Part shown: piece after piece, positions 310 to 58,530 of the stretch | Numbering within the stretch: the stretch's first letter is position 1 | Layout: each line of letters starts with the position of its first letter | Assembly (NCBI GenBank): GCA_964215915.1 | Contig: CAXPEB010000047.1 | Location: 29,835-93,834 of the forward strand | From: Bacteroidia bacterium | GTDB lineage: Bacteria; Bacteroidota; Bacteroidia; UBA8524 | DNA: 64,000 bases | Reading direction: 5' to 3' | Position numbers and translations under genes: made by a program | The notes under the pieces: model-generated | Database searches by the model: none | Told to the model about the DNA's origin: nothing | Seen by the model: only the letters and a program-made list of their open reading frames with translations

Positions 310-3300
310 ATGAACCCATTTTGTTTTCTGTCCATTATGCTTAGAAACACCCTGTCCAGCTGTGTTAGTCTGGTAATATTATTCGGCTTAACCCCTACCA
401 AGGCTCAAGAACCCTCATACTCGCCACTTACCCATTACATTCAAGAGAATCTTGGTCAGGTTAAGGATCAACACGGTAACCCGCGTCCGGATGTTTTCGT
501 CATCGGAACAGCTGGCCAATTGGGCTTTCATTTGCGGAAATGTGGCATGAGCTATCAGCTTTATCATCAGGGGACTGGCTCAAACGACAAGCCTGAGCAA
601 ATAGACAACGCTTCAAATAATTTGACCATATATCGGTTGGATATGAATTGGCTGAACTGCCAGGGCATGAACCAATTCAAACTGTCAGATGAAAACCCAG
701 GGTATTCCAACTACTACAATGTAGCTCGGGGCATGGAGCCGGCTTTATTTGTTAGAGACTACCGAAAACTGATAGCAAAAAACATTTGGCCTGGTGTGGA
801 TCTTCACCTCAGTGTTCAAGATGAGCAAGTGGAAACCGATTGGTACTTGGAAAAAGCGGCAGATCTCTATCACATTCAAATTGAGATTAAGGGAGCTGAA
901 ATCAGCATAGAAGACGGATGCCTGATCATGAAAACTCCATTTGGAGAAATCAGGGAAGGAAAGCTCAAAGTGCTGCAGGGAAACAAACAACTTAAAGCGC
1001 ATTGGATGCTCAACAATAACATTATTAGTTTTGAGGTAGAAGGCGCTAATCCGGAGCTTCCTCTCATTATTGACCCTCCCACTAGAATATGGAGCAGCTA
1101 TTATGGTGGGACAGGAGAAGAAAAAATAAGCGGCTCCGTAGTCGATAAGAACGAAAACCTGATTGTCGGCGGAAATGCAAATTCGCTGAACCTCACCACG
1201 TACGGAATCCACCAACGCAACTTCGGAGGTGGAGCAAGCGGTTTATTTGTTGGGGATGGATTGGTTGCCAAGTTCAATGATAAAGGCATTCGGATCTGGG
1301 CGACTTATTACGGTGGTAATCAGCCGGATAATGTTTTTTCCGTCACCACAGATTCTTCCGATAACATCTATTTTGTTGGCCGAACCAGATCAGATACGGG
1401 AATCGCTTCCCATGGCGGTCACCAAACCACTTATGGCGGTTGGCTATATGATGGATTCATAGTGAAACTAAATACGAATGGAATTCGGCAGTGGAGCAGC
1501 TACATCGGCGGTTCCAGTAGTGATCAATCCTATTCTTGCGCAATTGATCCGGATCAAAATGTATATATCACAGGCTATTCATATTCCAATACTCAAATTG
1601 CAACACCCGGGGCCTGGCAATATGATGTTGGAGCTATTGGAAGTGATGCATTCCTGATGAAATTCACCCCCGGAGGCACCAAAATCTGGGGAACTTATTT
1701 GGGTGGATCAGGAATGGATCAGGCATACGGATGTACCACAGACGATTCCGGTCACGTATATCTTTGCGGATATGCAGATTGTATCTCGACAATGGGATAC
1801 AATAGCTCACATCAGGACACGAATGCCGGTGGATTTGATGCCTTTCTTTCCAAGTTTGATAGCAGTGGAGCTTTATTATGGAGTACTTATTACGGCGGCG
1901 AAGCAGAAGACATCGCTTATTCTTGTAAAATCGGCAAGGAGGGTAATATTTACTTTGTAGGCACTACCCTGAGTGACTCAAATATTGCTTCTTCCGGGGC
2001 TTTTCAAAACAGGCGGGCAGGAGACCAGGACTTGTTTATTGCTAAATTCGATCCGGGTGGACAATGGTTATGGGGAAGCTACTTCGGTGGCAACGCAGAC
2101 GAAATAACCGACTTCAACAGTCTCACTTTGGACCGGCAGGGGAATATATACTTCACAGGAGGTTCTTTATCAATTACTGGCATTGCCTCCTCCGGAGCGT
2201 ATCAAATGAACAACTCAGGAATAAATGATGCATTTCTGGTAAAATTCACCCGCCAGGGTACACGCGTGTGGTCAACCTATTACGGTGGCAACGGTAATGA
2301 CCTCGGTGGAGCCCTCTGTACAACCAGTGAAGATGAATTGTACATGACCGGAAGTTCATCGACCCAGTCTGGACTCGCAACACCTGGCACCCTGCAATAT
2401 TTAAATGGAGGAGGAACGGATGGATTACTCACAAAATTCCGTGTGATTGAATCCAATACAATTTCCCAAGATCAATTTGTATGTTCCGGAAATGAAGCCC
2501 ATAACTTATTCGGGCCTTCATACTCCAATGCCGGTTTTACCTATCGGTGGCTAAAATCTGTTACCGATTCTCTCTCTGGTTTTTATGCAGCTGGAGGGAA
2601 CGACTCATCTTCAACATATAGCCCCGGAGTAATTATCCAAAAAACCTGGTACAAAAGGGTGCTGTCGCAGCATAGCATCCACGATACCTCGAATGTAGTG
2701 CTGCTCCAACCTGCAACGTTTCCAACTGCACATGCTTTGTTATTGGACGACAGCCTTTGTTTTGGCGACTCTTTAAGAATCTTTGATCTTAGCAATTTTA
2801 ACGGAGATAGTGCCTTAAGCTTAAATTGGTTTTGGCATGATACCCTGCTTGGCTCTGGTGACACATTTTCCTTCCTCCCTGCGACCGTTGGCATTGATAG
2901 TATTCAACTCATCGTAACCAGTAATAAAGGGTGTGCCGATACGACCTCATTCTCGTATCACCTTTTTAGGATTGACCATCGCAAGGTCCTACAGTCAGAT
3001 TCAGGCGCACTATGCCCCGGAGATTATCGACTGTTATATTCAACCATAGACCCCGGCTTAACTTTTGACTGGATTCACAATGGACAAAGCATTAAGCAAG
3101 GTATCGATAGCTCCATTCTCGTAAATGATACCGGATCCTATTGGATTAACATTTCCTCACAGGAAGGGTGTTATGCACTCAGTGACACCTTGAATCTGGT
3201 TTATGCGGAACTGCCTGAATTGACACTGCACTCAGATGAGAGTTCTCTTTGTCAAAACACCTGGATTTATGTCACTGACACCACACAGAGTAGCCCTGCC

Positions 3301-4191
3301 TATCAAAGAAAATGGTGGCTGGACGGACAATTACATGGTTCCACAAAATCCATTCATCTCCAACTTACGGACACGGGTGAGCACTGGTTCGTGTTAAGAG
3401 CAGAAACAGCAACTGGGTGTTCGGTGTCTGACTCTCTGTCTGTTATGGTGATATCAAACCCGCAGATCATGGGTCTTAATGGCGTCGTTACGAATACCAG
3501 AATCGATTCATCCTACTTATATACTTCCCTGGCCCAAACTGCGCAAACCTATATCTGGACGCTTAACGAAGGACACTTGATTTCCGGACAAGGAACGAAT
3601 CAGGCAACTATCAATTGGAACGACACAACCAAAGGAGGAATCTCTCTTTTGGTAACTTCCCAAGAAGGTTGTATGGATAGTACACACTATGCTGTGACTA
3701 TGGATTTGGCACCGGCAATCTATCAATTCAGCCCGCAAAACGGAAAACAGGGGGATACGATCAGCGTAGAGGGAGTGAATTTTACCCGCACCACTTTTGT
3801 TTCTGTTGGCGGCGTCATGACTCAATCCTATCAGATTCAAGACCATCGCCATCTTACCGCTATTTTGGGAACCGGAGATGATGGAAAGGTTCGTGTAGAA
3901 ACCCCATATGGAAATGCTGAATTAGGCACCTTTAACTTCCAGGGAGTTTCAGCACGCCCCATCCGGAAAGAGCAATTCCGTATTTATCCAAACCCCGTAT
4001 ACAATCACCTATACATTGAAAGGATAGGAAGTCAACAAAGCATATTCTTTGAGTTGTATGATGCAAATGGACGGCTAATTAAATCAGGGGAACACTCAGA
4101 GGGCATGGTTGCTTTAGACACAGAAGAATTATCTGCGGGGTTATATTTCTTATATATTGAAGGGCAAAGGTTTACGGTTGAGAAATATTAG
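310..4191 (+). CDS. Large secreted cell-surface protein: SBBP-type beta-propeller repeats, IPT/TIG-like domain and type-A T9SS C-terminal sorting domain
   Basis: 1293-aa ORF. The true start is probably ATG 337 (MLRNTLSS..., signal peptide ending TKAQ). More than 12 tandem ~50-aa repeats have a W.(S/T)YYGG ... D ... GN.Y..G core. The C-terminus FRIYPNPVYNHLYIE...GLYFLYIEG fits the T9SS CTD pattern. Confidence 0.8.
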   Translation: MNPFCFLSIMLRNTLSSCVSLVILFGLTPTKAQEPSYSPLTHYIQENLGQVKDQHGNPRPDVFVIGTAGQLGFHLRKCGMSYQLYHQGTGSNDKPEQIDNASNNLTIYRLDMNWLNCQGMNQFKLSDENPGYSNYYNVARGMEPALFVRDYRKLIAKNIWPGVDLHLSVQDEQVETDWYLEKAADLYHIQIEIKGAEISIEDGCLIMKTPFGEIREGKLKVLQGNKQLKAHWMLNNNIISFEVEGANPELPLIIDPPTRIWSSYYGGTGEEKISGSVVDKNENLIVGGNANSLNLTTYGIHQRNFGGGASGLFVGDGLVAKFNDKGIRIWATYYGGNQPDNVFSVTTDSSDNIYFVGRTRSDTGIASHGGHQTTYGGWLYDGFIVKLNTNGIRQWSSYIGGSSSDQSYSCAIDPDQNVYITGYSYSNTQIATPGAWQYDVGAIGSDAFLMKFTPGGTKIWGTYLGGSGMDQAYGCTTDDSGHVYLCGYADCISTMGYNSSHQDTNAGGFDAFLSKFDSSGALLWSTYYGGEAEDIAYSCKIGKEGNIYFVGTTLSDSNIASSGAFQNRRAGDQDLFIAKFDPGGQWLWGSYFGGNADEITDFNSLTLDRQGNIYFTGGSLSITGIASSGAYQMNNSGINDAFLVKFTRQGTRVWSTYYGGNGNDLGGALCTTSEDELYMTGSSSTQSGLATPGTLQYLNGGGTDGLLTKFRVIESNTISQDQFVCSGNEAHNLFGPSYSNAGFTYRWLKSVTDSLSGFYAAGGNDSSSTYSPGVIIQKTWYKRVLSQHSIHDTSNVVLLQPATFPTAHALLLDDSLCFGDSLRIFDLSNFNGDSALSLNWFWHDTLLGSGDTFSFLPATVGIDSIQLIVTSNKGCADTTSFSYHLFRIDHRKVLQSDSGALCPGDYRLLYSTIDPGLTFDWIHNGQSIKQGIDSSILVNDTGSYWINISSQEGCYALSDTLNLVYAELPELTLHSDESSLCQNTWIYVTDTTQSSPAYQRKWWLDGQLHGSTKSIHLQLTDTGEHWFVLRAETATGCSVSDSLSVMVISNPQIMGLNGVVTNTRIDSSYLYTSLAQTAQTYIWTLNEGHLISGQGTNQATINWNDTTKGGISLLVTSQEGCMDSTHYAVTMDLAPAIYQFSPQNGKQGDTISVEGVNFTRTTFVSVGGVMTQSYQIQDHRHLTAILGTGDDGKVRVETPYGNAELGTFNFQGVSARPIRKEQFRIYPNPVYNHLYIERIGSQQSIFFELYDANGRLIKSGEHSEGMVALDTEELSAGLYFLYIEGQRFTVEKY

Positions 4192-9793: not shown

Positions 9794-12700
9794 TTGCTTA
9801 GCAACGGAATGAAAAACTTACTGATCCTCTTATTACTCTCCTTCCATACCCTGTGTGCCCTGGCCCAACCCGGCACCAACGACAGCACGTTTAACCTTAT
9901 TGATCCTGGCTATTCGAATGGACTCGGACCGGATGATCAGATAAGGTCAGTGGCCCTTCAAAACGACGGAAAAGTACTGATAGGCGGCTATTTCACGCAA
10001 TTCAATGAAAAAACCATCAAGCGGATCGCAAGAATCCATGACGGGGTTCCGGATACTTCCTTCAAAACAGGAAACGGCTTCAATGATTACGTGCAATGTA
10101 TTGTTCTGCAAAGCGACGGCAAAATACTGGTAGGAGGCGACTTCACCTCCTACAACGGCGTGACCCGGAACCGGATCGCCAGACTGAATACCGATGGCAG
10201 CCTGGACATGTCCTTTAACCCCGGTAACGGCCCCAACAGCCTGGTAAGAAGTATCGCCATACAAAGCGACGGAAAAATTGTGATTGCCGGAAATTTCACC
10301 ACGTATAGCGGGACGGGTAGAAGCCGGATAGCACGACTGAACAGCAATGGCTCACTGGACAATTCCTATGACCCCGGTTCAGGCTTCAATAGTGCCGTTT
10401 ACAGCATCGGCATTCAGGCCAATGATAAAATCGTGGCCGTGGGTGCCTTTACGCTTTTTGATGGCACCACACGCGAGCGGGTTGCCCGACTTGAAACCGA
10501 TGGGACGCTTGATTTGTCTTTCTTGCCTGGCTTTGGATTTGATAAGACGGCCTATTCCCTGGCACTCGCTCCCAACGGCAATATTGTGGTCGGCGGAGAC
10601 TTCGATTATTTCAACGGAACGGCCCGCAACCGCATAGCCGTGATTGATTCCGGCGGAACCCTGGCAGGTTCGTTTAACCCCGGTAGTGGCTTTAACTCGA
10701 GCGTTTATTCGCTAAGGGTACAGGCCGATGGAAAAATTCTGGCTGGAGGATCTTTTAGCTCGTATGATGGAAATACCGCCAATAAAATCATTCGGCTGGA
10801 GGCTACGGGCAATGAAGACTCCGGCTTTCATGCCGGATCGGGTTTTGGTGGCAGCGGAGGCAATGTCGTTTACTCCATTCAAGTCCACCCGGATGGAAGA
10901 ATCGTGGCAGGAGGAATTTTCCCGAGCTACAATGGCCAGTCGAGAAATAATGTGGTAAGGTTGTTTTCCGACGGCACTCCCGACTATTCGCTCAACAGGT
11001 ATACGGGTTTCAGCGGAAAGGTAAGAAGTATCGTCGTGCAAAAAGACGGTAAAATACTGGCCGGTGGCGACTTCCGGTTTTATAACGGGGTGGAACGCTC
11101 GGGCATCGCCCGCCTGAACAGCGACGGCACGCTGGATACCGGTTTTGCCGTTGGCACCGGCATTAACTACAATATTGCCTATACCGGTGTTCATTCCCTG
11201 TTGTTGCAGGATGACGGAAAGATACTGGTAGGGGGTGACTTCTTTGACTACAACGGAAGCACGGTAAGCGGTTTGATCCGCTTGCATCCGGACGGAACGC
11301 TGGATACCACTTTCAAGACCGGAACCGGCGTGGGCGCGGGGTCCATTTATCATATGGCACTTCAAAGTGATGGCAAAATCATTATCGGCGGTAGTTTTAA
11401 CTCTTATGGTGGCTCTATCAGCTACAAAATCGCACGGATCCATACGGACGGAAGCAGGGACACCTCCTTCAATACCGGGGTATTTCCATATTCCGGGTTT
11501 GATCAGGATGTTAAGGCGCTTGTTATACAACCCGACGGGAAGATCCTGGTGGGTGGTGGTTTCAGCAGATACCGGAATACCTTTGTCAGCAACCGTATCC
11601 TCAGACTAAACCCGGATGGAAGCCTGGACCCCAACTTTTTGCAAACCAATGGCTTCAGCGGAGGAGGGGTTGAGACAATCGGCCTGCAGGCTGATGGCAG
11701 GATCGTGGTGGGTGGAACATTCACTTCCTTCAACGGCACAGCCAGAAACAAAATGGCAAGGGTGGAATCTGACGGAACACTGGATGCCTCCTTCTATCCC
11801 GGAAGCAATGGCTTTAACGGGACGGTAAGTGAGCTGATCGTGCAGGGCGACGGGAAGATTCTGGCCGCCGGAACATTTACCCAATACAACCTGGTCGATT
11901 ATAAACGTATTATACGACTCAACTCAAACGGAACGGTCGATAACGGGATCGACTTCCATACGGGGTTCCCCGATGATGTAGAGACCATTGCCTTACAGCC
12001 CGATGGGAAAATCCTGGCCGGAGGAGTCTTTACTTCGTTTGATGGCTATGGAAGAAACCGGATTGCCCGTATTAACAACACCTGTGTTCCCAACCTGATC
12101 GTGATTGGCGCTTCTGCCTGCGACAGCTTTGTGTTCAACAACCAAACGTACAAGGCCTCTGGGATTTACCAACAGCAGTTCACCAATGCCTATGGCTGCG
12201 ATTCCACCATTCAGCTTAACCTGACAGTACACGCTTCTAGCGGCAGCAACCTCATAATCACCGCCTGTGATACGTTTGCTTTCCTGGGTCAGCAATACAC
12301 CAGCTCCGGTATTTATACCCATGTGATACCCAACAGCGTCGGTTGCGATTCCACCATTACCCTGGACCTCACCATTAACAACAGCACGTCGCAAAGTATT
12401 ACCACCAGCGCATGCAGCAGCTATATACTGAATGGACAGACGTATACCGCTTCGGGCACTTATGTTCAGATGATGACGAACATGGCGGGTTGTGATTCCA
12501 TTATCACGCTGAATCTGACTATTAACGACGCGGATACGGGTGTAAGCCGCACAGGCCCCAACACTTTGCAGGCTAATGCCATCGGGGCCGTGTATCAGTG
12601 GATTGATTGTGACAATACCACCACCCCAGAAATACCCGGTGCTACCGGCAGGACTTTTACGGCTACCCAGAATGGGCGCTATGCGGTACGCGTGACCGAG

Positions 12701-13003
12701 AATAGCTGCACTGGCACTTCTGCCTGTCATACCATTAATAGTGTAGGTATCGAAGACCCGCTGATCCCGAAGGTGGCTCTTTACCCCAATCCGGCAGGTT
12801 CCACAGTAACTCTGGTGTCCGAGGCCCCGCTGAATGGTGCAGACATCCGGCTGAGAACCATGGACGGCAGGCTGATCGGGGAAGAAACTGCCGTGGAGGG
12901 TTCGGTACATACCCTTGACCTGACTCGCCTGGCTCCCGGCATCTACCTGGTTGAAATAACCCAACAACACAGCGTGCTGCGAATCAAACTTGTGAAGGAG
13001 TAG
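9794..13003 (+). CDS. Delta-60-repeat cell-surface protein with cysteine-containing repeats and a type-A T9SS C-terminal domain
   Basis: 1069 aa with a signal peptide. About 13 tandem repeats carry DGKILVGGDF..YNG..RNRIARLN.DGSLD.SFNPG (delta-60 repeat pattern). Four ~60-aa repeats then have C..F.F.GQ.YT.SGIY......N..GCDS.I.L.LT. The C-terminus ALYPNPAGSTVTLV...GIYLVEI fits a T9SS CTD. Confidence 0.8.
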   Translation: MLSNGMKNLLILLLLSFHTLCALAQPGTNDSTFNLIDPGYSNGLGPDDQIRSVALQNDGKVLIGGYFTQFNEKTIKRIARIHDGVPDTSFKTGNGFNDYVQCIVLQSDGKILVGGDFTSYNGVTRNRIARLNTDGSLDMSFNPGNGPNSLVRSIAIQSDGKIVIAGNFTTYSGTGRSRIARLNSNGSLDNSYDPGSGFNSAVYSIGIQANDKIVAVGAFTLFDGTTRERVARLETDGTLDLSFLPGFGFDKTAYSLALAPNGNIVVGGDFDYFNGTARNRIAVIDSGGTLAGSFNPGSGFNSSVYSLRVQADGKILAGGSFSSYDGNTANKIIRLEATGNEDSGFHAGSGFGGSGGNVVYSIQVHPDGRIVAGGIFPSYNGQSRNNVVRLFSDGTPDYSLNRYTGFSGKVRSIVVQKDGKILAGGDFRFYNGVERSGIARLNSDGTLDTGFAVGTGINYNIAYTGVHSLLLQDDGKILVGGDFFDYNGSTVSGLIRLHPDGTLDTTFKTGTGVGAGSIYHMALQSDGKIIIGGSFNSYGGSISYKIARIHTDGSRDTSFNTGVFPYSGFDQDVKALVIQPDGKILVGGGFSRYRNTFVSNRILRLNPDGSLDPNFLQTNGFSGGGVETIGLQADGRIVVGGTFTSFNGTARNKMARVESDGTLDASFYPGSNGFNGTVSELIVQGDGKILAAGTFTQYNLVDYKRIIRLNSNGTVDNGIDFHTGFPDDVETIALQPDGKILAGGVFTSFDGYGRNRIARINNTCVPNLIVIGASACDSFVFNNQTYKASGIYQQQFTNAYGCDSTIQLNLTVHASSGSNLIITACDTFAFLGQQYTSSGIYTHVIPNSVGCDSTITLDLTINNSTSQSITTSACSSYILNGQTYTASGTYVQMMTNMAGCDSIITLNLTINDADTGVSRTGPNTLQANAIGAVYQWIDCDNTTTPEIPGATGRTFTATQNGRYAVRVTENSCTGTSACHTINSVGIEDPLIPKVALYPNPAGSTVTLVSEAPLNGADIRLRTMDGRLIGEETAVEGSVHTLDLTRLAPGIYLVEITQQHSVLRIKLVKE

Positions 13004-13066: not shown

Positions 13067-14653
13067 CTAAGACCCGAAACTCAATTGAAGGGTATGACCC
13101 GGCGAATGTGGCCCGGTGAGATATCCCTTAAACGGCAATCTGGAATGCATCACCAGAATTCCGCCCTTGGGTATCCGTACCGGAATTTCGGCCCCTTGCT
13201 GAATGAGCAACTCAATCTCGTACGGAGTCAACTCTCTGTGGTGCAAACCCTTTATGATACGCAGGGAGGTTTGTTCATTACGGTTTTCTCTAAGCTGTAT
13301 CCGTATGACCAAAGAATTACGGTCATTCGACAGCTGTTGCCAACCCTTCCTAACTTCCGGAGCACTATAGTAAGGGTTAAACTCAGCCCAAACATGTTCC
13401 GGACTAAGATTAGAACTCTTTAGGATTTGATCGATAGATTCTTTGTGCCACAGGGATTTGGTCAGTTCTGCCAGCTTCTCCGGCGGTATACCCGGGTTTT
13501 CGGCACAAAGCCTATGGGCCTGACTCCTTAAATGACGGCATTCGCGCTCTGTGTAAACCTGTTCCAACACATGATACCCCTTCTTTGCCAGGATGGAAGG
13601 AAGTTTTTGAATAACCTCTCCATTCATTTCCATCCGGTAATGATTCAGGCCCGCTTCAATCCGATCAAACAAGCGCTTGCGAAGCCTGGAGGGTTCCAAA
13701 ACCCGAATAGTCTCTCCCAATCCCAGTAACACCTTCTCCAGTTCAAAGTTGTGCTGCACCTGCATTTCGAAGATCATCCCAAAATGATTTCGTTCCACCA
13801 ACTTCTGACTGGCATGCAGAGGCTTGGTAAGCAGATAGGGCGCTGATTCCATTGTGGCAAAGAAGCGAACCGTTTCAGGAATAGCCTGCGGGCTTACCGT
13901 TACACCGATGACATTTTTAAAATAGTTCCGGAAAAAGTCCTCTTCCTCTAACTGCGACTCCTCATCCATAATTTTAACACCCTCCATCCTATCCAGGGCC
14001 AGTAACTGATAGCTTCGGCTAGTTTCTCTGTGACCCAATACAAACCAACGGTTCTGGTACTCCTTCAATAGCCCGGGATGAAACAAGATATTTTGAGCTG
14101 CTCTGGCTTTGAAAGACTGGTAGGTAATCAGAGTCTGTTTCTTGTTCATTATTGCGTTATACAATACTTCCATCCAGTGCAGGCCCTTCAGATTTTCGTT
14201 TGACTCAAGATCTATAATGGGTCTACCCTTGGTGCGGGAAACCTGTACTTTGTCTTCGAGTCGCTGTACGATTCCTCCCAGATCTTCAAAATGAGAAAAC
14301 CCTTTAAACTGCTTGAGCAAATTGACGGCCTCGGTCAGTTTGTTCAAGTCCTGATCAGTTAGCGGGATATTGGTGATGGAATATTCAGGGTCTTCGTAGC
14401 TGTAGTATTTCTTGTCTGTGATGATGATCGGCGCGTTATATCCCAGTTTTTCACTTCGCATCATCTGGATGTCCATCTGTACGGTGCGCCGGCTTACTCC
14501 TTTATCAATTCCTTCGAATTCGTATAGCGCCTCGGAACAAGCATCGATAAGATCCTCAAGAGTCCATTTTCGGTACCTGTTTTTCAGGCAGTTATCGATG
14601 GTGGTATAGCGCAGGAGAGCATTGCGATTAACGGGCATGGTGAAAATTTTCAA
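13067..14653 (-). CDS. HTH-WYL-WCX family transcriptional regulator with an additional ~190-aa C-terminal domain
   Basis: 528 aa. The layout is an N-terminal winged-HTH region, then a WYL-type domain (LITYQSFKARAAQNILFHPGLLKEYQNRWFVLGHRE), then a WCX-like segment (IRVLEPSRLRKRLFDRIEAG). The unassigned C-terminal part contains WHKE and ...ILVMHSRLPF motifs. Confidence 0.75.
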   Translation of the reverse strand: MKIFTMPVNRNALLRYTTIDNCLKNRYRKWTLEDLIDACSEALYEFEGIDKGVSRRTVQMDIQMMRSEKLGYNAPIIITDKKYYSYEDPEYSITNIPLTDQDLNKLTEAVNLLKQFKGFSHFEDLGGIVQRLEDKVQVSRTKGRPIIDLESNENLKGLHWMEVLYNAIMNKKQTLITYQSFKARAAQNILFHPGLLKEYQNRWFVLGHRETSRSYQLLALDRMEGVKIMDEESQLEEEDFFRNYFKNVIGVTVSPQAIPETVRFFATMESAPYLLTKPLHASQKLVERNHFGMIFEMQVQHNFELEKVLLGLGETIRVLEPSRLRKRLFDRIEAGLNHYRMEMNGEVIQKLPSILAKKGYHVLEQVYTERECRHLRSQAHRLCAENPGIPPEKLAELTKSLWHKESIDQILKSSNLSPEHVWAEFNPYYSAPEVRKGWQQLSNDRNSLVIRIQLRENRNEQTSLRIIKGLHHRELTPYEIELLIQQGAEIPVRIPKGGILVMHSRLPFKGYLTGPHSPGHTLQLSFGS

Positions 14654-14945
14654 AAAAATCCGAAAAAGAATTTAACTGCGCAAAAAGACTGCGCAGTTGC
14701 TCCTAACCTTTGAATTGTGAAACACGAACAAAAAGGAATTCGGCCCCGCTCTTCAAATTGAAGAGTGGGTTGCGAAAAAGGAGGTTTCACTTGTTCATTG
14801 ACATATCCGCATAGTGATATAAAGATCTTTCCGAAAGGAAAGCGCAGATGTTTTCAGGTACGGACCTGCTTCCGGTTTCTGTATAGCCGGAAAGTGCTCT
14901 AAGGAGTATGCTACTTGTCCTGAAATTGATTTGTGTCCAACGCGT

Positions 14946-15047
14946 GTCGGGGGTTCGATTCCCTCTCCTATAGTTTAGGGTAGCTCAGTTGGTAGAGCAG
15001 CGATGTAACGCAGGTTCGAATCCTGCACTCAGTTTTGGTCTGAGTTT
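14946..15047 (+). ncRNA. tRNA-like element that is not a canonical tRNA; candidate Y-RNA-like (YrlA-type) tRNA mimic
   Basis: The first T-arm-like segment is GGGGG-TTCGATT-CCCTC (14949-14965). A canonical D-arm GCTC-AGTTGGTA-GAGC follows at 14983-14998. Only 11 nt later comes a perfect T-arm GCAGG-TTCGAAT-CCTGC (15010-15026). A hairpin ACTCAG-TTTTGGT-CTGAGT plus TTTG follows at 15027-15048. No anticodon stem-loop fits, because the D-stem and T-stem are separated by 11 nt where about 23 are needed. No 7-bp acceptor stem can be paired. Confidence 0.4.
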
Positions 15048-15351
15048 GATTAATGGTTGAATCAACATCCCATGGACTCCAAATCCATCACCGGGACCGC
15101 CTGTCCCCAAATAAGGCAATTGTATCCGGGCGGGAAAAGAGAAACAGAGCGGTGCTTCGGCACCAATCACGGAGTTCCGGGCCGGAAACGGCAGATACCG
15201 CAGGACGACGCGTTTTTCAGGTGATCGCATCCATTCCAGAATGCATTCGGTTGCAGTAAAAATGCCGGTGACTGCTCAAGCAGGTTCCCGCCCCGAAAAC
15301 CGGTTTCTCTTTCCCCCGCCCTATTAAATGAAAATGTAAAAGTAGATTGAT

Positions 15352-16449
15352 ATGAAAAAAGTAATCGTAACACCGGGTCTGGTAGGCTTGGTTTACAAAA
15401 ACGGAAAAACAGAACGTGTATTGACTGAAGGAACCTACTGGATATCCTTGTGGTCTGAAGTGCGCATGTTTGCGATGAACCTGGCATTTCAACCGAAAGA
15501 GAGTCTGGAAGTAGCCTTGCAATCGGAAGTTTTGCAACCCTACCTTGAAATAGTAGAGGTGAAAGAAGGAGAAATCGCTCTGCGTTATGAAAACAACCGT
15601 TTTGTCGGGGTTCTTTTTGCCGGTAAGCATGCTTACTGGAAAGGACTGATCGATTACCGTTTCATCATCGACAATATGGAAAACTGCCGTATTCGTCCGG
15701 AAATCGAAAGAAACATTTTGCGCTACCCGGCCTTTGGGTCATTAACCCGGACATTCCGTGTTGACTCATACTGCAAGGCAGTGTTAAGTATAGAAGGAGA
15801 GGAAGACAAGATTCTTGAACCGGGAGAATACCTGTTCTGGAACAACCGTAAGGTTATCTCCGTTATTCCGGTGGATATGCGTTCTCAGATGATGGAAGTT
15901 TCCGGACAGGAACTGCTTACCCGCGATAAAGCAAGCCTTCGGTTAAGTTTATTTGCTTCCATCCGGGTAAATGATATCCGCAAAGCGGTATTGGAAAATA
16001 CAGCCTACTCCAAACAGGTATACACCATCCTGCAATTGGCCATTCGTGAATTTGTCGGGACCAAAAGCCTGGATGAAATCCTGGAGAACAAGGAGATGAT
16101 TTCCGACTACGTGATGAAAAACAGCAAAGCTGCCATTGCGGAAACCGGAGTAGAGTTAAGCAGCTGCGGGGTTCGTGACATCATCCTTCCGGGAGAAATG
16201 CGCGAGATCTTTAATAAGGTGCTGATTGCGGAGAAACAAGCCGCAGCCAACGTAATCATGCGCCGGGAAGAAACCGCATCCACCCGTTCCCTGTTGAACA
16301 CCGCCAAACTGATGGAAGAAAACGAAGTGCTCTTCCGTCTGAAGGAAATGGAATACGTGGAACGTATCGCCGAAAAAATCGGGAACCTGAGCGTTACCGG
16401 TAACGGAACCCTGATCTCACAGTTAAAAGAGATTTTTGTAAATAAGTAG
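15352..16449 (+). CDS. SPFH/band-7 (stomatin/prohibitin-like) domain protein, soluble, co-operonic with rtcB
   Basis: 365 aa. The C-terminal two thirds show an SPFH core pattern (VDMRSQMMEVSGQELLTRDKASLRLSLFASIRVNDIRKAV...CGVRDIILPGEMREIF) followed by a coiled coil. There is no hydrophobic N-terminal anchor. The N-terminal region looks like partial SPFH-like duplications. The stop lies 17 bp before rtcB. Confidence 0.75.
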   Translation: MKKVIVTPGLVGLVYKNGKTERVLTEGTYWISLWSEVRMFAMNLAFQPKESLEVALQSEVLQPYLEIVEVKEGEIALRYENNRFVGVLFAGKHAYWKGLIDYRFIIDNMENCRIRPEIERNILRYPAFGSLTRTFRVDSYCKAVLSIEGEEDKILEPGEYLFWNNRKVISVIPVDMRSQMMEVSGQELLTRDKASLRLSLFASIRVNDIRKAVLENTAYSKQVYTILQLAIREFVGTKSLDEILENKEMISDYVMKNSKAAIAETGVELSSCGVRDIILPGEMREIFNKVLIAEKQAAANVIMRREETASTRSLLNTAKLMEENEVLFRLKEMEYVERIAEKIGNLSVTGNGTLISQLKEIFVNK

Positions 16450-16465
16450 CGGCTGGGGACCACAC

Positions 16466-17902
16466 TTGGTGGTCCCCATTATGATTGAATTCATGACTAT
16501 TACAAGCGAAGAACTGATAAAATGGAATATTCCAAAAGGCCCGGAATTCGGAATCTGCCTTGATATTTTGAATGCTCTGGATGAAAAATCCTGGAGCAAG
16601 AAGTCTGCGAAACAGGAAATCGATAAAATCTTATCAAACCCGGAAACAAAAAGTCATCCGGCATTTAATGCCCTGAAACAAGTGGTAATACAACGCGAGG
16701 CCAATAAAACCATTGCCGTGGCTGAAAAGGCAAGCAGTTATACGATTTATGGAGAAGAAGGAATAGAAGCGGGAGCTCTGAAGCAAATGGATACTGTGAT
16801 GCGTCTTCCCATTTCCCGTGCCGGAGCATTGATGCCAGACGCACACCAGGGTTACGGTTTACCCATTGGCGGAGTATTGGCTACGGAAAACACCATTATC
16901 CCTTACGGAGTGGGTGTGGATATAGGATGCCGTATGTGCCTGAGCATCTTCGATATCCCGGCAATCCATATAGAACAAAACCGGGAACGTCTGAAAACAG
17001 TTCTAAACCGGAGCTCCAAATTCGGCAAAGCTGTATTCCAAAAACCGCAGGATCATGAAGTACTGGCCAGCCCCTTGTTTAATGAGATTCCATTATTAAG
17101 GGCCCTTCAGGAAAAAGCAGCCAGGCAGATAGGCAGCTCCGGAGGAGGAAACCATTTTGTGGAATTTGGGATATGTGAAATAGTGGATCAAGACAACGAA
17201 TTGGGAATTCAGCCAGGCCAATACTTGTCATTACTCAGCCATTCCGGATCACGCGGACTCGGAGCCAGCATTGCCGGGCATTATACCCGGCTTGCCAAAA
17301 CACAGACCAGGTTGCCGGATGAGCTAAAACACCTGGCATGGCTTAATCTTGATAGTGAGGCGGGACAGGAATACTGGCTGGCAATGAACCTGGCAGGAGA
17401 CTATGCCAGCGCCTGTCATCATCAGATACACGCCAAAGTTGCCCGTGACTTTCAGCTGGAACCTTTGGCCATGGTTGAAAACCACCACAATTTTGCCTGG
17501 AAAGAAACCCTTGAAGATGGAAAGGAATACATTATTCACCGAAAGGGAGCTACACCGGCCGGAAAAGGGGTCTTAGGAATAATTCCTGGCTCCATGACTG
17601 CGCCTGGCTTTATTGTACGTGGGAAAGGGCTCTCAGACTCGTTGAATTCCGCCTCCCACGGAGCAGGCCGGGCCATGTCACGTACCCAAGCAAAGAACTC
17701 ATTGAATGCAAAGGATATGGTTAAACATCTCCAGGACCAGGGAGTTGATTTAATTGGTTCAGGCTTGGATGAGGCACCAATGGCGTATAAAAACATCCAT
17801 GACGTAATGGAAGCACAGAAAGACCTGATAGAAGTGCTGGGAACCTTCCTTCCCAAAGTGGTTCGAATGTGCGGCGACGAAGGTTTCCGGGAAGTGGATT
17901 GA
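16466..17902 (+). CDS. rtcB: RNA-splicing ligase RtcB (3-prime-phosphate / 5-prime-OH RNA ligase)
   Basis: 478 aa with the conserved RtcB motifs MPDAHQGYGLPIGGV, GGGNHFVEFG, HNFAWKE and HGAGRAMSR. A ~100-aa N-terminal extension is not typical of the core enzyme. Several alternative start codons fall in the first 10 codons. Confidence 0.85.
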   Translation: MVVPIMIEFMTITSEELIKWNIPKGPEFGICLDILNALDEKSWSKKSAKQEIDKILSNPETKSHPAFNALKQVVIQREANKTIAVAEKASSYTIYGEEGIEAGALKQMDTVMRLPISRAGALMPDAHQGYGLPIGGVLATENTIIPYGVGVDIGCRMCLSIFDIPAIHIEQNRERLKTVLNRSSKFGKAVFQKPQDHEVLASPLFNEIPLLRALQEKAARQIGSSGGGNHFVEFGICEIVDQDNELGIQPGQYLSLLSHSGSRGLGASIAGHYTRLAKTQTRLPDELKHLAWLNLDSEAGQEYWLAMNLAGDYASACHHQIHAKVARDFQLEPLAMVENHHNFAWKETLEDGKEYIIHRKGATPAGKGVLGIIPGSMTAPGFIVRGKGLSDSLNSASHGAGRAMSRTQAKNSLNAKDMVKHLQDQGVDLIGSGLDEAPMAYKNIHDVMEAQKDLIEVLGTFLPKVVRMCGDEGFREVD

Positions 17903-22328: not shown

Positions 22329-22691
22329 ATGGAAATCAACTTCAACGAATTATTAACCAAAATCACTGACTTCATGAAGTCGGAGGCAAAAACGGAAACC
22401 GTAATCGGCGAGCAGTTTACGCTTGGCGAATTCACCTGTGTACCGGTAATTAAAGTAGGAATGGGTTTCGGCTCGGGCGGAGGTGAAGGCGAAGACCCCA
22501 AAAAAGGCAAAGGTACCGGTGCCGGAGCAGGTGCAGGCGTGGGAATCGAACCCATCGGGTTCCTGGTGACCCGTGAAGACAGCATCAGCTTCCTTAGCGC
22601 CGGTAAATCAAAGGGATTGGCAGCCATGTTTGAGCAGGTTCCGGAATTGATTGAAAAGCTGGCCAAGAAAAAAGATCAGCAGGAGGCTTAA
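22329..22691 (+). CDS. GerW/YtfJ family protein (sporulation-protein-YtfJ fold)
   Basis: 120 aa with the family pattern VIGEQFTLGEFTCVPVIKVGMGFGSGGGEGE...GAGAGAGVGIEPIGFLV and a glycine-rich loop. Confidence 0.7.
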   Translation: MEINFNELLTKITDFMKSEAKTETVIGEQFTLGEFTCVPVIKVGMGFGSGGGEGEDPKKGKGTGAGAGAGVGIEPIGFLVTREDSISFLSAGKSKGLAAMFEQVPELIEKLAKKKDQQEA

Positions 22692-53337: not shown

Positions 53338-53508
53338 GGTCCTTTCCGTTTTAAGGTTTCGTTACTATTCGATCAATGTACGGAAAGAACACTTTGCGGG
53401 GAATAATTCTTGAAAACCCTCTCTTGCCTGGAACAGGAATCATTTGTCGAAAAACAGCAAACGCAAGTAACTCTTCAGACGTATACCTCGTTCCTCAAGC
53501 GGATTACC

Positions 53509-57989: not shown

Positions 57990-58388
57990 CTACAGACTGA
58001 TTTCATACAGATAGCAGACGTTATTGACCGTATCTCTGAAATACCTGGAATCATCTGCGCTTCCCCCCTTACTTCCATAAACCACACAATTTTCATCCGG
58101 CTCAAACCAAGCGGGACAAGCCTTCGGTTTTTCCCAGGCTTCTGCGGATAAAATCAGGTCATTGTCTGCAACAAACCGCTCCCACCAGTCTGCAGTTGTT
58201 TGCAACTGCAGGTATACCTCATACTCCCGGGTGAAATGTGCCGATTGCCAGTAGGTGCCTTTCAAGACTTTCACGTCATGGGGAACCTCGCTTCGAGACC
58301 ATTGTGAAAAAGCTTCTTCCGGGTCTGAAGTATGGATTCCTGAACAGGATAAAAAGAGCACGACAAGTATCCAAACTGATTTCCTCAT
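57990..58388 (-). CDS. Hypothetical small lipoprotein
   Basis: 132 aa with a lipoprotein signal (VWILVVLFLSCSG). Confidence 0.5.
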   Translation of the reverse strand: MRKSVWILVVLFLSCSGIHTSDPEEAFSQWSRSEVPHDVKVLKGTYWQSAHFTREYEVYLQLQTTADWWERFVADNDLILSAEAWEKPKACPAWFEPDENCVVYGSKGGSADDSRYFRDTVNNVCYLYEISL

Positions 58389-58530
58389 ACAATCTCCCCG
58401 TCAATCTAACCTATTTTTTAGTTCTGTCTGTTTACGGCCTCATCCTAATCCGCTTCAGAGGGGCCGAGCGGTTAATCATAAAATTCTTCCTCACATGCAA
58501 CATTCTGCGCCTTCAGGGTTTCTGTCTGGT

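What the first reader, a model, noticed from the sequence alone, without database searches (positions are those of the whole stretch)
14946..15047. tRNA-like element with intact D-arm and T-arm but no anticodon arm or acceptor stem
Read directly from the sequence. GGGGG-TTCGATT-CCCTC is at 14949-14965. Nine nt later comes GGGTA-GCTC-AGTTGGTA-GAGC, a textbook D-arm with the conserved GG in the D-loop. Only 11 nt (AGCGATGTAAC) after that comes a perfect T-arm GCAGG-TTCGAAT-CCTGC. Then ACTCAG-TTTTGGT-CTGAGT-TTG follows, a hairpin with a U-tract that looks like a terminator. A canonical tRNA needs about 23 nt between the D-stem and T-stem to hold an anticodon stem-loop and variable loop. The 7 nt before the D-arm (TTTAGGG) cannot pair with the 7 nt after the T-arm (ACTCAGT), so there is no acceptor stem. 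The element therefore keeps the tRNA elbow but lacks the decoding and aminoacylation parts. That is the architecture reported for the tRNA-like domain of bacterial Y-RNA-like RNAs. A TTGACA hexamer at 14798-14803 and a ~300-nt structured leader follow the pattern of a separately transcribed small RNA next to the rtcB operon. The leader includes a GGUGC-UUCG-GCACC tetraloop hairpin at 15151-15164.
Basis: partly seen in the sequence, partly recalled or inferred. Interest (0 to 1): 0.8.

Follow-up and report, generated by a model that had tools for sequence, protein, structure and literature searches.

The report
Tandem permuted tRNA mimics before rtcB
The flagged stretch is real: it is two back-to-back, circularly rearranged tRNA look-alikes inside a long structured RNA leader that precedes a slipin–RtcB RNA-repair operon and is conserved across Bacteroidota. 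It resembles bacterial Y-RNA-like RNAs but does not qualify as one.

Summary
The D-arm (14983-98) belongs with the upstream T-arm (14949-65) and the small hairpin between them (14966-80), which is a closed acceptor stem. Together they form a circularly permuted, YrlA-type tRNA-like module. The downstream T-arm (15010-26) starts a second such module. A D-like arm (15048-63) and an anticodon-like hairpin (15072-88) follow.

ARAGORN calls no tRNA. The best Rfam hit is YrlA at 43 bits, below its gathering score of 69.

The tandem module lies just upstream of the slipin gene in 70 of 84 related Bacteroidota loci, and all seven helices covary (96% paired against 68% shuffled). A pseudoknot and a roughly 200-nt rod domain follow. 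The flanking genes are a divergent WYL regulator, slipin (SPFH/Band-7) and RtcB. No Ro60/Rsr gene and no Ro-binding stem were found.

This most likely matches or extends the computationally predicted Band-7-associated tRNA-like RNA (Burroughs and Aravind 2016). It is most likely an RNA cofactor or scaffold, or a decoy, of the repair system. That function is inferred, not shown.

The parts
13067..14653 (-). Divergent regulator gene with WYL and WCX domains and a weak PhyH-like C-terminus
   Evidence: Pfam: WYL 3.4e-9 and WCX 2.9e-8. The C-terminal 190 aa score 21.2 bits against PhyH, cutoff 22. The orthologue in L084 carries PhyH. A homologue is present in about 38 of 84 related loci.
14675..14695 (.). 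Operator-like direct repeat ACTGCGCA-N5-ACTGCGCA between the regulator gene and the leader
   Evidence: Conserved in the window clade. Present as TGCGYA-N5-7-TGCGYA in diverse loci. Its function as an operator is inferred.
14744..14769 (+). Hairpin CCCCGCTCTTC-AAAT-TGAAGAGTGGG
   Evidence: The stem differs in sequence but still pairs in L084, L007, L037 and L041. In those distant loci a tRNA-Tyr-like gene follows it; that gene is absent from the window.
14793..14802 (+).
   Evidence: Present in nearly all loci inspected, including loci where it lies downstream of a tRNA-Tyr gene.
14827..14842 (+). Hairpin CUUUCC-GAAA-GGAAAG
   Evidence: Conserved as CTTCC-loop-GGAAG across loci.
14872..14890 (+). 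Hairpin CCGG-UUUCUGUAUAG-CCGG with a conserved loop
   Evidence: The loop GTTTCTGTATAGC recurs on different stems (for example GTG/CAC, GAG/CTC) in many loci.
14896..14907 (+). Hairpin GCUC-UAAG-GAGU followed by the conserved GUAUGC
   Evidence: The tetraloop varies. The stem covaries: L084 has GCCT/AGGT.
14941..15002 (+). tRNA-like module 1 (YrlA-type, circularly permuted). Closing 'anticodon-stem' helix 14941-43/15000-02; variable loop GUGUC 14944-48; T-arm 14949-65; closed acceptor hairpin 14966-80; U8 A9 at 14981-82; D-arm 14983-98; A26 at 14999
   Evidence: Rfam YrlA alignment. RNAalifold predicts it without hints. Covariation of all four helices. Coordinates checked.
15003..15068 (+). 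tRNA-like module 2. A possible closing helix AUGU/ACAU 15003-06/15065-68 is invariant in the clade, so it is unsupported by covariation
   Evidence: Parse of 85 loci. Covariation of T2, Acc2 and D2. The D2 stem covaries with L084, which has GTTC/GAAC.
15072..15088 (+). Anticodon-like hairpin AUGGA-CUCCAAA-UCCAU
   Evidence: In close relatives only loop positions 34-36 change: CCA, UCA, GAU, CAA. The stem covaries in L030 and L034. The family-wide loop profile is Y32 U33 NNN R37 A38.
15093..15117 (+). H-type pseudoknot. S1 GGGAC/GUCCC 15093-97/15103-07; loop GCCU 15099-15102 pairs with AGGC 15114-17 after an A-rich linker
   Evidence: Loop-to-tail complementarity of at least 4 bp in 30 of 38 loci, against 16% in permuted controls, with 25 distinct S2 sequences. 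The U-to-A change in the loop is matched by an A-to-U change downstream in L081.
15128..15326 (+). Second structured domain: a long irregular rod closed by GGGCGGGAAAAGAGAAAC/GUUUCUCUUUCCCCCGCCC.
   Evidence: MFE and centroid folds. RNAalifold on 4 clade members gives 28 of 58 pairs with compensatory changes. Its 3' strand motif GCTTTCTTT-AAAA recurs in distant loci.
15352..16449 (+). Slipin (SPFH/Band-7) gene
   Evidence: Pfam Band_7 7.7e-26. Named slipin family by database sources. Relatives of solved stomatins deposited with 16-chain entries.
16466..17902 (+). RtcB RNA ligase gene
   Evidence: Pfam RtcB 1.5e-82. NCBIfam RtcB families. Present in about 58 of 84 related loci, mostly directly after slipin.

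Best explanation
The element is the tRNA-mimic core of a roughly 550-650-nt structured leader RNA of a Bacteroidota RNA-repair operon (WYL regulator | leader RNA | slipin | RtcB).

Shown:
- It consists of two tandem, circularly permuted tRNA-like modules. Each is ordered T-arm, closed acceptor hairpin, U8-N9, D-arm.
- The nucleotides that build the tRNA elbow are kept: G18G19 with the T-loop UUCGA, U8 with A14, and G53 with C61.
- An anticodon-like hairpin, an H-type pseudoknot and a long rod domain follow.

Inferred:
- The leader is transcribed with slipin-rtcB from a regulator-controlled promoter near 14700 and is processed into a stable RNA.
- Its L-shaped modules act as the RNA partner (scaffold or cofactor) of the slipin oligomer and the RtcB ligase. 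This is analogous to YrlA with Ro60/Rsr in the Salmonella rsr-yrlBA-rtcBA operon.
- The modules present tRNA-like surfaces that recruit or organise tRNA-handling proteins during repair of cleaved tRNA or rRNA.
For: - No tRNA call.
- The best Rfam match is YrlA, and it aligns T-arm, acceptor hairpin and D-arm in register.
- RNAalifold, given no hints, recovers the closing stem, T1, Acc1, D1, T2 and Acc2, with 27 of 30 pairs compensatory.
- A covariance model built from 31 sequences finds one hit in the window (108 bits) and hits of at least 64 bits at the same position upstream of slipin in 70 of 84 other loci. Forty of those were not in the seed.
- On these 71 sequences 96.3% of cells pair, against 68.5% when shuffled and 41-50% when slid. 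There are 732 double-change cells against 207 expected, and all 7 helices covary.
- Of 136 parsed modules, 132 have GG in the D-loop, 110 have UA at positions 8-9, and 116 have A14.
- Gene context is WYL, Band_7 and RtcB.
- No terminator-like site other than the T-arms themselves lies between the RNA and slipin.
- Literature: YrlA is a circularly permuted tRNA mimic encoded with rtcB, and a Band-7-associated tRNA-like RNA next to RtcB was predicted (10.1101/312249). Slipin, rtcB and a tRNA array are co-induced under translational stress in Anabaena (PMC8421152 and PMC10272220).
Against: - No expression, end-mapping or binding data exist. Transcription, processing and the slipin/RtcB partnership are all inferred from synteny and analogy.
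- The sequences for the first covariation test were chosen by a parse that required the helices. The second alignment was fitted to the model. Both inflate the percentage paired, though not the diversity of pair types.
- In about a quarter of related loci RtcB is not adjacent, or lies upstream of a tRNA array.
- The closing helix of module 2 in the window has no covariation support.
- The original description of the predicted Band-7-associated RNA could not be read.
Confidence: 0.6

Rival explanations
1. Cis-acting regulatory leader. The tRNA-like modules, pseudoknot and rod act in cis to control transcription elongation or translation of slipin-rtcB, by binding a tRNA-recognising factor or by being cleaved. 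They would not act as a trans-acting cofactor.
For: - The RNA abuts the slipin start codon with no terminator or obvious promoter in between.
- A 27-nt block just before the ATG is nearly invariant in the clade.
- The rod domain ends about 25 nt before the ATG.
Against: - The distance from the modules to the ATG varies from about 280 to about 900 nt, and the sequence next to the ATG is not conserved outside the clade.
- Y RNAs of the Salmonella operon are also operon-internal yet act as RNPs.
- The two roles are not mutually exclusive.
Confidence: 0.2
2. Decoy or tripwire for anticodon nucleases. The anticodon-like stem-loops, and the tRNA shape that presents them, soak up or are cut by ribotoxins. 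The cut could be resealed by RtcB, or could generate the signal sensed by the WYL regulator.
For: - The hairpin 15072-88 keeps C32, U33, A37 and A38, while positions 34-36 differ in each close relative.
- Family-wide, the last module is followed at +1 by a 5-bp/7-nt hairpin. Its anticodon triplets are UUU, GUU, UAG, CAA, GAA and CAU. By established knowledge, several of these are classic anticodon-nuclease targets.
- Many related loci carry arrays of 10-20 tRNA genes or a tRNA-Tyr(GUA) immediately upstream.
- Array tRNAs have been proposed as sponges for toxin RNases (PMC8421152).
- tRNA halves are the inducer of the Salmonella operon (PMC7790460).
Against: - Module 1 has no anticodon loop at all.
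- Salmonella YrlA was not cleaved under inducing conditions.
- No nuclease partner has been identified.
- The idea is purely inferential.
Confidence: 0.2
3. A bona fide YrlA Y RNA that binds a Ro60/Rsr protein encoded elsewhere in the genome.
For: - YrlA is the top Rfam hit, at E=3e-8.
- The permuted architecture is identical to that of the YrlA tRNA-like domain.
Against: - The score is 43.4 bits against a gathering score of 69, and no related locus reaches it.
- The only candidate 5'/3' closing stem (14928-39 with 15073-85) shows no covariation. Its 3' strand is instead a covarying local hairpin.
- No TROVE domain is found in any window ORF of 330 aa or more.
- No recurrent TROVE appears among 91 flanking ORFs of 400-640 aa in related loci.
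- T and D stem sequences vary freely, whereas they are nearly invariant in YrlA.
Confidence: 0.07
4. Circularly permuted pre-tRNA(s). After excision, RtcB joins the ends, and RNase P and RNase Z open the acceptor loop to give a functional tRNA. This would resemble the permuted tRNA genes of Cyanidioschyzon.
For: - In many loci the last module has every tRNA part in permuted order: T-arm, acceptor stem of 7-8 bp, D-arm, anticodon arm.
- An RNA ligase gene is adjacent.
- M. smegmatis YrlA is cut by RNase P and receives CCA.
Against: - In the window the acceptor hairpins are only 5 and 6 bp.
- D2 is atypical.
- The anticodon-like hairpin is 8 nt away from D2.
- Module 1 has no anticodon loop.
- The anticodon is not conserved between close relatives.
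- No bulge-helix-bulge motif was looked for or seen.
Confidence: 0.04
5. Decaying remnants of a tandem tRNA gene array, with no function of their own.
For: - Related loci often carry real tRNA arrays upstream.
- The model gives weak hits (30-62 bits) on tandem tRNAs, by joining the T-arm of one tRNA to the D-arm of the next.
Against: - The acceptor-position strands pair with each other across a 3-20 nt loop. Two independent tRNAs would not do this.
- Position, order and pairing are kept across the phylum with hundreds of compensatory changes.
- Elbow nucleotides are conserved.
Confidence: 0.02

Closest known systems
YrlA (Y RNA-like A; Rfam RF02553; Chen et al. 2014, PMC4201824; structure 6CU1, 10.1101/312249)
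   Same: - Circularly permuted tRNA mimic in the order closing 'anticodon' stem, variable loop, T-arm, loop-closed acceptor stem, D-arm.
- tRNA elbow nucleotides are kept.
- Encoded in an operon with rtcB.
- Not called by tRNA finders.
   Different: - Below the Rfam gathering score (43 against 69 bits).
- No Ro60-binding helix and no rsr neighbour.
- T and D stem sequences are free to vary.
- Two (elsewhere three) modules in tandem.
- Followed by an anticodon-like arm, a pseudoknot and a 200-nt rod.
- The protein partner gene is slipin, not Rsr.
[quoted passage not shown]
   Same: - A predicted, experimentally unvalidated tRNA-like ncRNA encoded next to a Band-7/SPFH protein and RtcB.
- The same source notes that YrlA-like RNAs occasionally sit next to Band-7 genes.
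   Different: - b7a-tRNA is described as 'strongly resembling an authentic tRNA', whereas the window has no callable tRNA.
- In related loci a regular tRNA-Tyr(GUA)-like gene lies upstream of the permuted modules and may be the b7a-tRNA proper.
- The original paper could not be read, so whether the tandem permuted modules were described there is unknown.
Long tRNA arrays (L-arrays) co-regulated with rtcB and slipin (Anabaena trn operon; PMC8421152, PMC10272220)
   Same: - Linkage or co-regulation of extra tRNA genes, rtcB and a slipin gene under a dedicated transcription factor.
- Many loci related to the window carry 10-20 tRNA genes just upstream.
   Different: - Those are ordinary, decodable tRNA genes.
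- The element here is permuted and non-decodable.
- The window itself carries no tRNA genes.
Circularly permuted tRNA genes of Cyanidioschyzon merolae (PMC3978253)
   Same: The 3' half (T-arm, acceptor 3' strand) precedes the 5' half (acceptor 5' strand, D-arm), joined through the acceptor ends.
   Different: - Those mature into functional tRNAs through a circular intermediate.
- Here the acceptor stems are short, the anticodon is absent or unconserved, and no maturation is known.
tmRNA tRNA-like domain and viral or lncRNA tRNA-like structures
   Same: Use of a T-arm and tRNA shape for non-decoding roles. tmRNA and plant viral tRNA-like structures also combine the mimic with pseudoknots.
   Different: - tmRNA scores 13.7 bits against a gathering score of 47.
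- No aminoacylatable acceptor end and no tag reading frame.
- Different topology.

Membership tests
YrlA (Rfam RF02553) | Reaches the curated Rfam gathering score (69 bits) | tested here: not met
   43.4 bits at 14923-15025. Nothing at gathering in the window. No YrlA hit at gathering in 17 related loci.
YrlA (Rfam RF02553) | Permuted tRNA-like module: T-arm, loop-closed acceptor stem and D-arm enclosed by an anticodon-like stem | tested here: met
   Helices at 14941-43/15000-02, 14949-65, 14966-80 and 14983-98, all covarying.
YrlA (Rfam RF02553) | Ro60/Rsr-binding helix formed by the 5' and 3' ends | tested here: not met
   The candidate stem GAUUUG.UG.UCCA/UGGA.CUC.CAAAUC appears in the MFE fold but shows no compensatory change. 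It is weakened in L081. Its 3' strand forms a covarying local hairpin instead.
YrlA (Rfam RF02553) | Encoded next to an rsr (TROVE-domain) gene | tested here: not met
   No TROVE domain in any window ORF of 330 aa or more. None among called genes of L081-L084. No recurrent TROVE in 91 flanking ORFs of related loci. An rsr gene elsewhere in the genome cannot be excluded.
YrlA (Rfam RF02553) | Nearly invariant D- and T-stem sequences | tested here: not met
   T-stem pairs show 4-6 pair types each across 71 sequences. The invariance in YrlA is as stated in PMC4201824.
YrlA (Rfam RF02553) | Modified by TruB and DusA (pseudouridine 55, dihydrouridine) | not testable with these tools
   Requires biochemistry. 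The substrate nucleotides (UUCGA T-loop; U in the D-loop) are present.
Band-7-associated tRNA-like RNA (Burroughs and Aravind 2016) | ncRNA encoded adjacent to a Band-7/SPFH gene and RtcB | tested here: met
   Band_7 at 15352-16449 and RtcB at 16466-17902. The same arrangement holds in relatives.
Band-7-associated tRNA-like RNA (Burroughs and Aravind 2016) | 'Strongly resembles an authentic tRNA' | tested here: inconclusive
   No tRNA call in the window. The Rfam tRNA hit of 29.0 bits at 14978-15031 is an artefact joining D1 to T2, with the anticodon arm deleted. In at least 17 of 60 related loci a tRNA-Tyr(GUA) gene lies just upstream. The original definition could not be read.
tRNA | Cloverleaf with an acceptor stem made from the 5' and 3' ends, plus an anticodon arm between the D- and T-arms | tested here: not met
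   ARAGORN gives 0 genes. Only 11 nt lie between D1 and T2. The flanks do not pair.
tmRNA | Rfam RF00023 gathering score; tag reading frame | tested here: not met
   13.7 bits against 47. ARAGORN finds no tmRNA.
Intrinsic terminator (for 15027-15045) | GC-rich hairpin followed by a U-tract that ends the transcript | tested here: not met
   The terminator-like scan listed the two T-arms but not 15027-45. That hairpin covaries as a structural stem (94.5% paired, 6 of 6 pairs with double changes). A D-arm follows it after 2 nt in every locus.

The most novel reading that the evidence does not exclude
The leader may be an RNA 'tripwire and spare part' for ribotoxin attack. Its permuted tRNA modules would present fast-evolving anticodon-like loops as bait for anticodon nucleases. 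Cleavage of the leader would then yield the 2',3'-cyclic-phosphate fragment sensed by the WYL regulator and/or release translation of slipin-rtcB, and RtcB would reseal it. In the extreme version, RtcB circularises the excised module so that RNase P and RNase Z can release a working tRNA. Either way this would be a self-contained, RNA-encoded sensor for tRNA damage, spread across a whole phylum.
Probability: 0.15. Interest if true: 0.85.

Novelty: new variant of a known kind. Interest (0 to 1): 0.6.

Why it matters
What bacterial RtcB repairs, and why RNA-repair operons carry tRNA-like RNAs, is still open. The only studied example is Ro60-YrlA, and the Band-7-associated counterpart has never been validated and has no Rfam family.

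This locus gives a precise anatomy, supported by covariation, for that counterpart in Bacteroidota. The anatomy comprises tandem permuted tRNA modules, anticodon-like arms with variable triplets, a pseudoknot and a rod domain. The RNA is linked to slipin, RtcB, a WYL regulator and often tRNA arrays.

That makes several questions directly testable in cultivable species:
- Does slipin play the Ro60 role?
- Does the RNA act as scaffold, decoy or sensor?
- What induces the operon?

It also shows that tRNA finders and Rfam currently miss a widespread RNA class.

Tried and rejected
1. **Ro-type closing stem.** A long stem pairing 14928-39 with 15073-85 looked attractive in the MFE fold. I rejected it because there is no compensatory change, and the 3' strand is a covarying local anticodon-like hairpin.
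2. **Sigma-70 promoter at TTGACA 14798.** The scan finds no promoter-like site there. The hexamer is part of a block that is conserved even downstream of tRNA genes. A Bacteroidota-type -7 box (TAACCTTTG, about 14706-14) next to the operator repeat is only a guess.
3. **Terminator reading of 15027-45.** Rejected.
4. **Hammerhead or k-turn reading** of the CUGAUGA-like motif seen upstream in distant loci. The window lacks it and Rfam finds nothing.
5. **Third T-loop match at 22542-52 (minus strand).** It is antisense inside a CDS, scores only 23 bits against tRNA-Sec, and is chance.
6. **Phage origin.** A viral-contig scan with the slipin profile gave one distant hit.
7. **Reading Burroughs and Aravind 2016 and the 2020 Ro60 review.** Neither is held.
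8. **First crude pseudoknot scan.** It mixed in anticodon-like hairpins. It was redone with stricter criteria and permuted controls.
Full report
**Observation**

- T-arm GGGGG-TTCGATT-CCCTC, 14949-65
- D-arm GCTC-AGTTGGTA-GAGC, 14983-98
- 11-nt spacer, 14999-15009
- T-arm GCAGG-TTCGAAT-CCTGC, 15010-26
- hairpin ACTCAG-TTTTGGT-CTGAGT, 15027-45
- TTGACA, 14798-803
- GGTGC-TTCG-GCACC, 15151-64

The only slip is the 'nine nt' spacing: GGG begins 12 nt after the first T-arm.

The motifs are far beyond chance. GGTTCGAWTCC occurs 3 times against 0.06 expected, and the 18-mer D-arm occurs once against 0.02 expected. The third T-loop match (22542-52, minus strand) is antisense in a coding ORF and is noise.

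ARAGORN finds no tRNA or tmRNA in the 64 kb. Rfam finds nothing at gathering thresholds.

**What the arms really are**

A permissive Rfam scan of 14600-15400 gives YrlA (RF02553) as best hit: 43.4 bits, E=3e-8, gathering score 69. It aligns the first T-arm, the short hairpin after it, and the D-arm in register. The accompanying tRNA hit (29.0 bits, 14978-15031) merely joins D-arm 1 to T-arm 2 with the anticodon arm deleted.

YrlA's tRNA-like domain is a circularly permuted tRNA. Its order is anticodon-like stem, variable loop, T-arm, loop-closed acceptor stem, D-arm (10.1101/312249).

Read this way, the window holds two such modules in tandem (coordinates verified).

Module 1:
- closing helix CGC/GCG, 14941-43/15000-02
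- variable loop GUGUC
- T-arm, 14949-65
- acceptor hairpin UCCUA-UAGUU-UAGGG, 14966-80
- U8 A9
- D-arm, 14983-98
- A26

Module 2:
- T-arm, 15010-26
- UU
- D-like arm GAUU-AAUGGUUG-AAUC, 15048-63

Thermodynamic folding gives the same six hairpins.

**Comparative evidence**

The downstream gene is a slipin (SPFH/Band-7), followed by RtcB. A WYL/WCX regulator is transcribed divergently.

Slipin homologues led to 80 Bacteroidota loci and four closer relatives.

A simple parse finds the unit 'T-arm, 0 nt, closed hairpin of 4-8 bp, TA/TG, D-arm' twice in tandem upstream of slipin in nearly every locus. It occurs three times in L008, L030, L034, L045, L063 and L079. The hairpin sequences are all different.

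RNAalifold on a MAFFT alignment of 31 sequences, with no structural hint, predicts the closing stem, T1, Acc1, D1, T2 and Acc2. Of 30 pairs, 27 are compensatory. Pair counting on that alignment gives 92.7% paired, against 69.5% shuffled and 38-47% slid.

A covariance model built from that alignment gives:
- a single hit in the window (108 bits, 14937-15064)
- hits of at least 64 bits at the equivalent position in 70 of 84 other loci
- weaker hits in most of the rest
- as expected, weak false hits on tandem genuine tRNAs

On the 71 strong hits (40 outside the seed), 96.3% of cells pair, against 68.5% shuffled and 41-50% slid. There are 732 double-change cells against 207 expected, and all seven helices covary.

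Caveats: the seed was chosen by a parse that demanded the T, acceptor and D helices, and the 71-sequence alignment is fitted to the model. The closing stem was not a selection criterion, and it still covaries.

The elbow nucleotides are kept. Of 136 modules, 132 have GG in the D-loop, 110 have UA at positions 8-9, and 116 have A14. T-loops are UUCGANU.

**What lies around the modules**

*Anticodon-like hairpin.* Directly after module 2 comes AUGGA-CUCCAAA-UCCAU (15072-88). In the three close relatives only positions 34-36 of the loop differ (CCA, UCA, GAU, CAA), while C32, U33, A37 and A38 are fixed. In L030 and L034 the stem covaries. Family-wide, the last module is followed at +1 by a 5-bp/7-nt hairpin with profile Y32 U33 NNN R37 A38. 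In many loci the last module is therefore a complete tRNA in permuted order. This also disposes of my first idea of a Ro-type closing stem (14928-39 with 15073-85), which has no compensatory support.

*Pseudoknot.* Next is an H-type pseudoknot: S1 at 15093-97/15103-07, with loop GCCU 15099-102 pairing with AGGC 15114-17 after an A-rich linker. The loop-to-tail complementarity is at least 4 bp in 30 of 38 loci, against 16% in permuted controls, with 25 different sequences.

Of 58 pairs, 28 are compensatory among four clade members.

*Upstream elements.* Upstream of the modules lie further conserved elements:
- hairpin, 14744-69
- GTTCWTTGA block, 14793-802, which contains 'TTGACA'
- hairpin, 14827-42
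- hairpin with the conserved loop UUUCUGUAUAG, 14872-90
- hairpin, 14896-907

An operator-like repeat ACTGCGCA-N5-ACTGCGCA (14675-95) sits next to the regulator gene.

No terminator-like site other than the T-arms, and no promoter-like site, lies between the RNA and the slipin ATG.

The whole of about 14720-15351 therefore looks like one multi-domain leader of the slipin-rtcB operon.

**Membership**

As a YrlA, the element meets the architectural criterion but fails the others:
- the gathering score, both here and in 17 relatives
- the Ro-binding helix
- the rsr neighbour: no TROVE domain in any window ORF of 330 aa or more, and none recurrent among 91 flanking ORFs of relatives
- the invariant D and T stems

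The context matches the 'Band-7-associated tRNA' predicted by Burroughs and Aravind (2016). [quoted passage not shown]

In at least 17 of 60 related loci an ordinary tRNA-Tyr(GUA) gene lies just upstream of the permuted modules. In about a dozen loci a 10-20-gene tRNA array does. The window has neither. The original paper is not held, so I cannot tell whether the tandem permuted modules were described. I therefore rate the element a new variant of a known kind.

**Mechanism**

Shown: the fold, its conservation and the synteny.

Inferred: co-transcription with slipin-rtcB under the WYL regulator, processing to a stable RNA, and action as the RNA partner of slipin and RtcB.
- Slipin is a relative of stomatins whose solved-structure entries hold 16 chains, and it has no obvious membrane helix.
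- The proposed partnership parallels YrlA with Ro60.

Independent support for a functional module comes from Anabaena. There a tRNA array, rtcB and a slipin gene are co-repressed by one factor and induced by translational stress (PMC8421152, PMC10272220).

Rivals are:
- a cis-regulatory leader
- a decoy or sensor for anticodon nucleases, suggested by the variable 'anticodons' and the linked tRNA arrays
- a true Rsr-binding Y RNA
- a permuted pre-tRNA matured by RtcB
- tRNA-array debris, which is refuted by the covariation

The first two are compatible with the main model and cannot be separated without experiments.

**Verdict**

This is a real, strongly conserved RNA element. It was wrong in anatomy, and wrong on the promoter, the terminator and the independent-sRNA reading.

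It is moderately to highly interesting. It is a phylum-wide tRNA-mimic RNA that is absent from Rfam, with a richer architecture than YrlA. However, it was anticipated by a 2016 computational prediction, and its function is inferred only by analogy.

Noticed in passing
L016, L018, L022, L029, L035, L036, L040, L047, L052, L054, L056, L057, L058 (upstream of locus coordinate about 6400): Arrays of 10-20 same-strand tRNA genes lie directly upstream of the permuted modules and slipin in many related loci. In several of them (L022, L035, L040, L042, L045, L079) RtcB sits upstream of the array instead of after slipin. The window has no tRNA gene at all.
   Followed up: partly
L003, L004, L006, L008, L009, L010, L014, L025, L026, L027, L032, L041, L042, L048, L051, L054, L061 (about 100-470 nt upstream of module 1): The nearest upstream gene is repeatedly a tRNA-Tyr(GUA), inside the WYL-slipin intergenic region. 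It may be the 'b7a-tRNA' of the literature. In the window clade it is missing: only about 25 nt separate hairpin 14744-69 from the GTTCATTGA block.
   Followed up: partly
window 15093-15117: H-type pseudoknot with an A-rich linker after the tRNA-like modules. It is conserved with many different stem-2 sequences across Bacteroidota and has no Rfam match.
   Followed up: yes
window 15128-15326: A rod-like structured domain of about 200 nt, with compensatory changes in the clade. It ends about 25 nt before the slipin start codon. Its 3' motif GCTTTCTTT-AAAA recurs in distant loci.
   Followed up: partly
window 15326-15351: The block ATGAAAATGTAAAAGTAGATTGAT immediately before the slipin ATG is nearly invariant in the window clade, including the 57%-identical L084, but is not conserved outside it. 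It could be a translation-control or promoter element.
   Followed up: no
window 14675-14695: Direct repeat ACTGCGCA-N5-ACTGCGCA, each half containing the palindrome TGCGCA. It is conserved next to the WYL gene in diverse loci and is a likely operator. The weak Rfam CRISPR-DR57 hit lies just downstream of it (14696-14740, minus strand) and is chance.
   Followed up: partly
window 14872-14890: Hairpin whose 11-nt loop UUUCUGUAUAG is conserved on stems of different sequence across the phylum. The loop contains CUGUA, reminiscent of a tRNA-Tyr anticodon loop.
   Followed up: no
window 13067-13639 (minus strand; C-terminal 190 aa of the WYL protein): The regulator carries a C-terminal extension with borderline similarity to PhyH-type 2OG-Fe(II) dioxygenases (21.2 bits, cutoff 22). 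The L084 orthologue has PhyH on record. This is an unusual WYL architecture.
   Followed up: partly
L008, L030, L034, L045, L063, L079: Three rather than two tandem permuted modules, so the module number is variable in the family.
   Followed up: no
window 22542-22552 (minus strand): A third exact GGTTCGATTCC match. It lies antisense within ORF 22329-22691 (plus strand), scores only 23 bits against tRNA-Sec, and is judged a chance match.
   Followed up: yes
window 310-4191, 9794-13003, 27194-31429, 37552-42072, 46255-48798, 53410-55701, 58255-60582: Many large proteins carry type IX secretion C-terminal sorting domains (Por_Secre_tail, CHU_C), which places the window in Bacteroidota.
   Followed up: no
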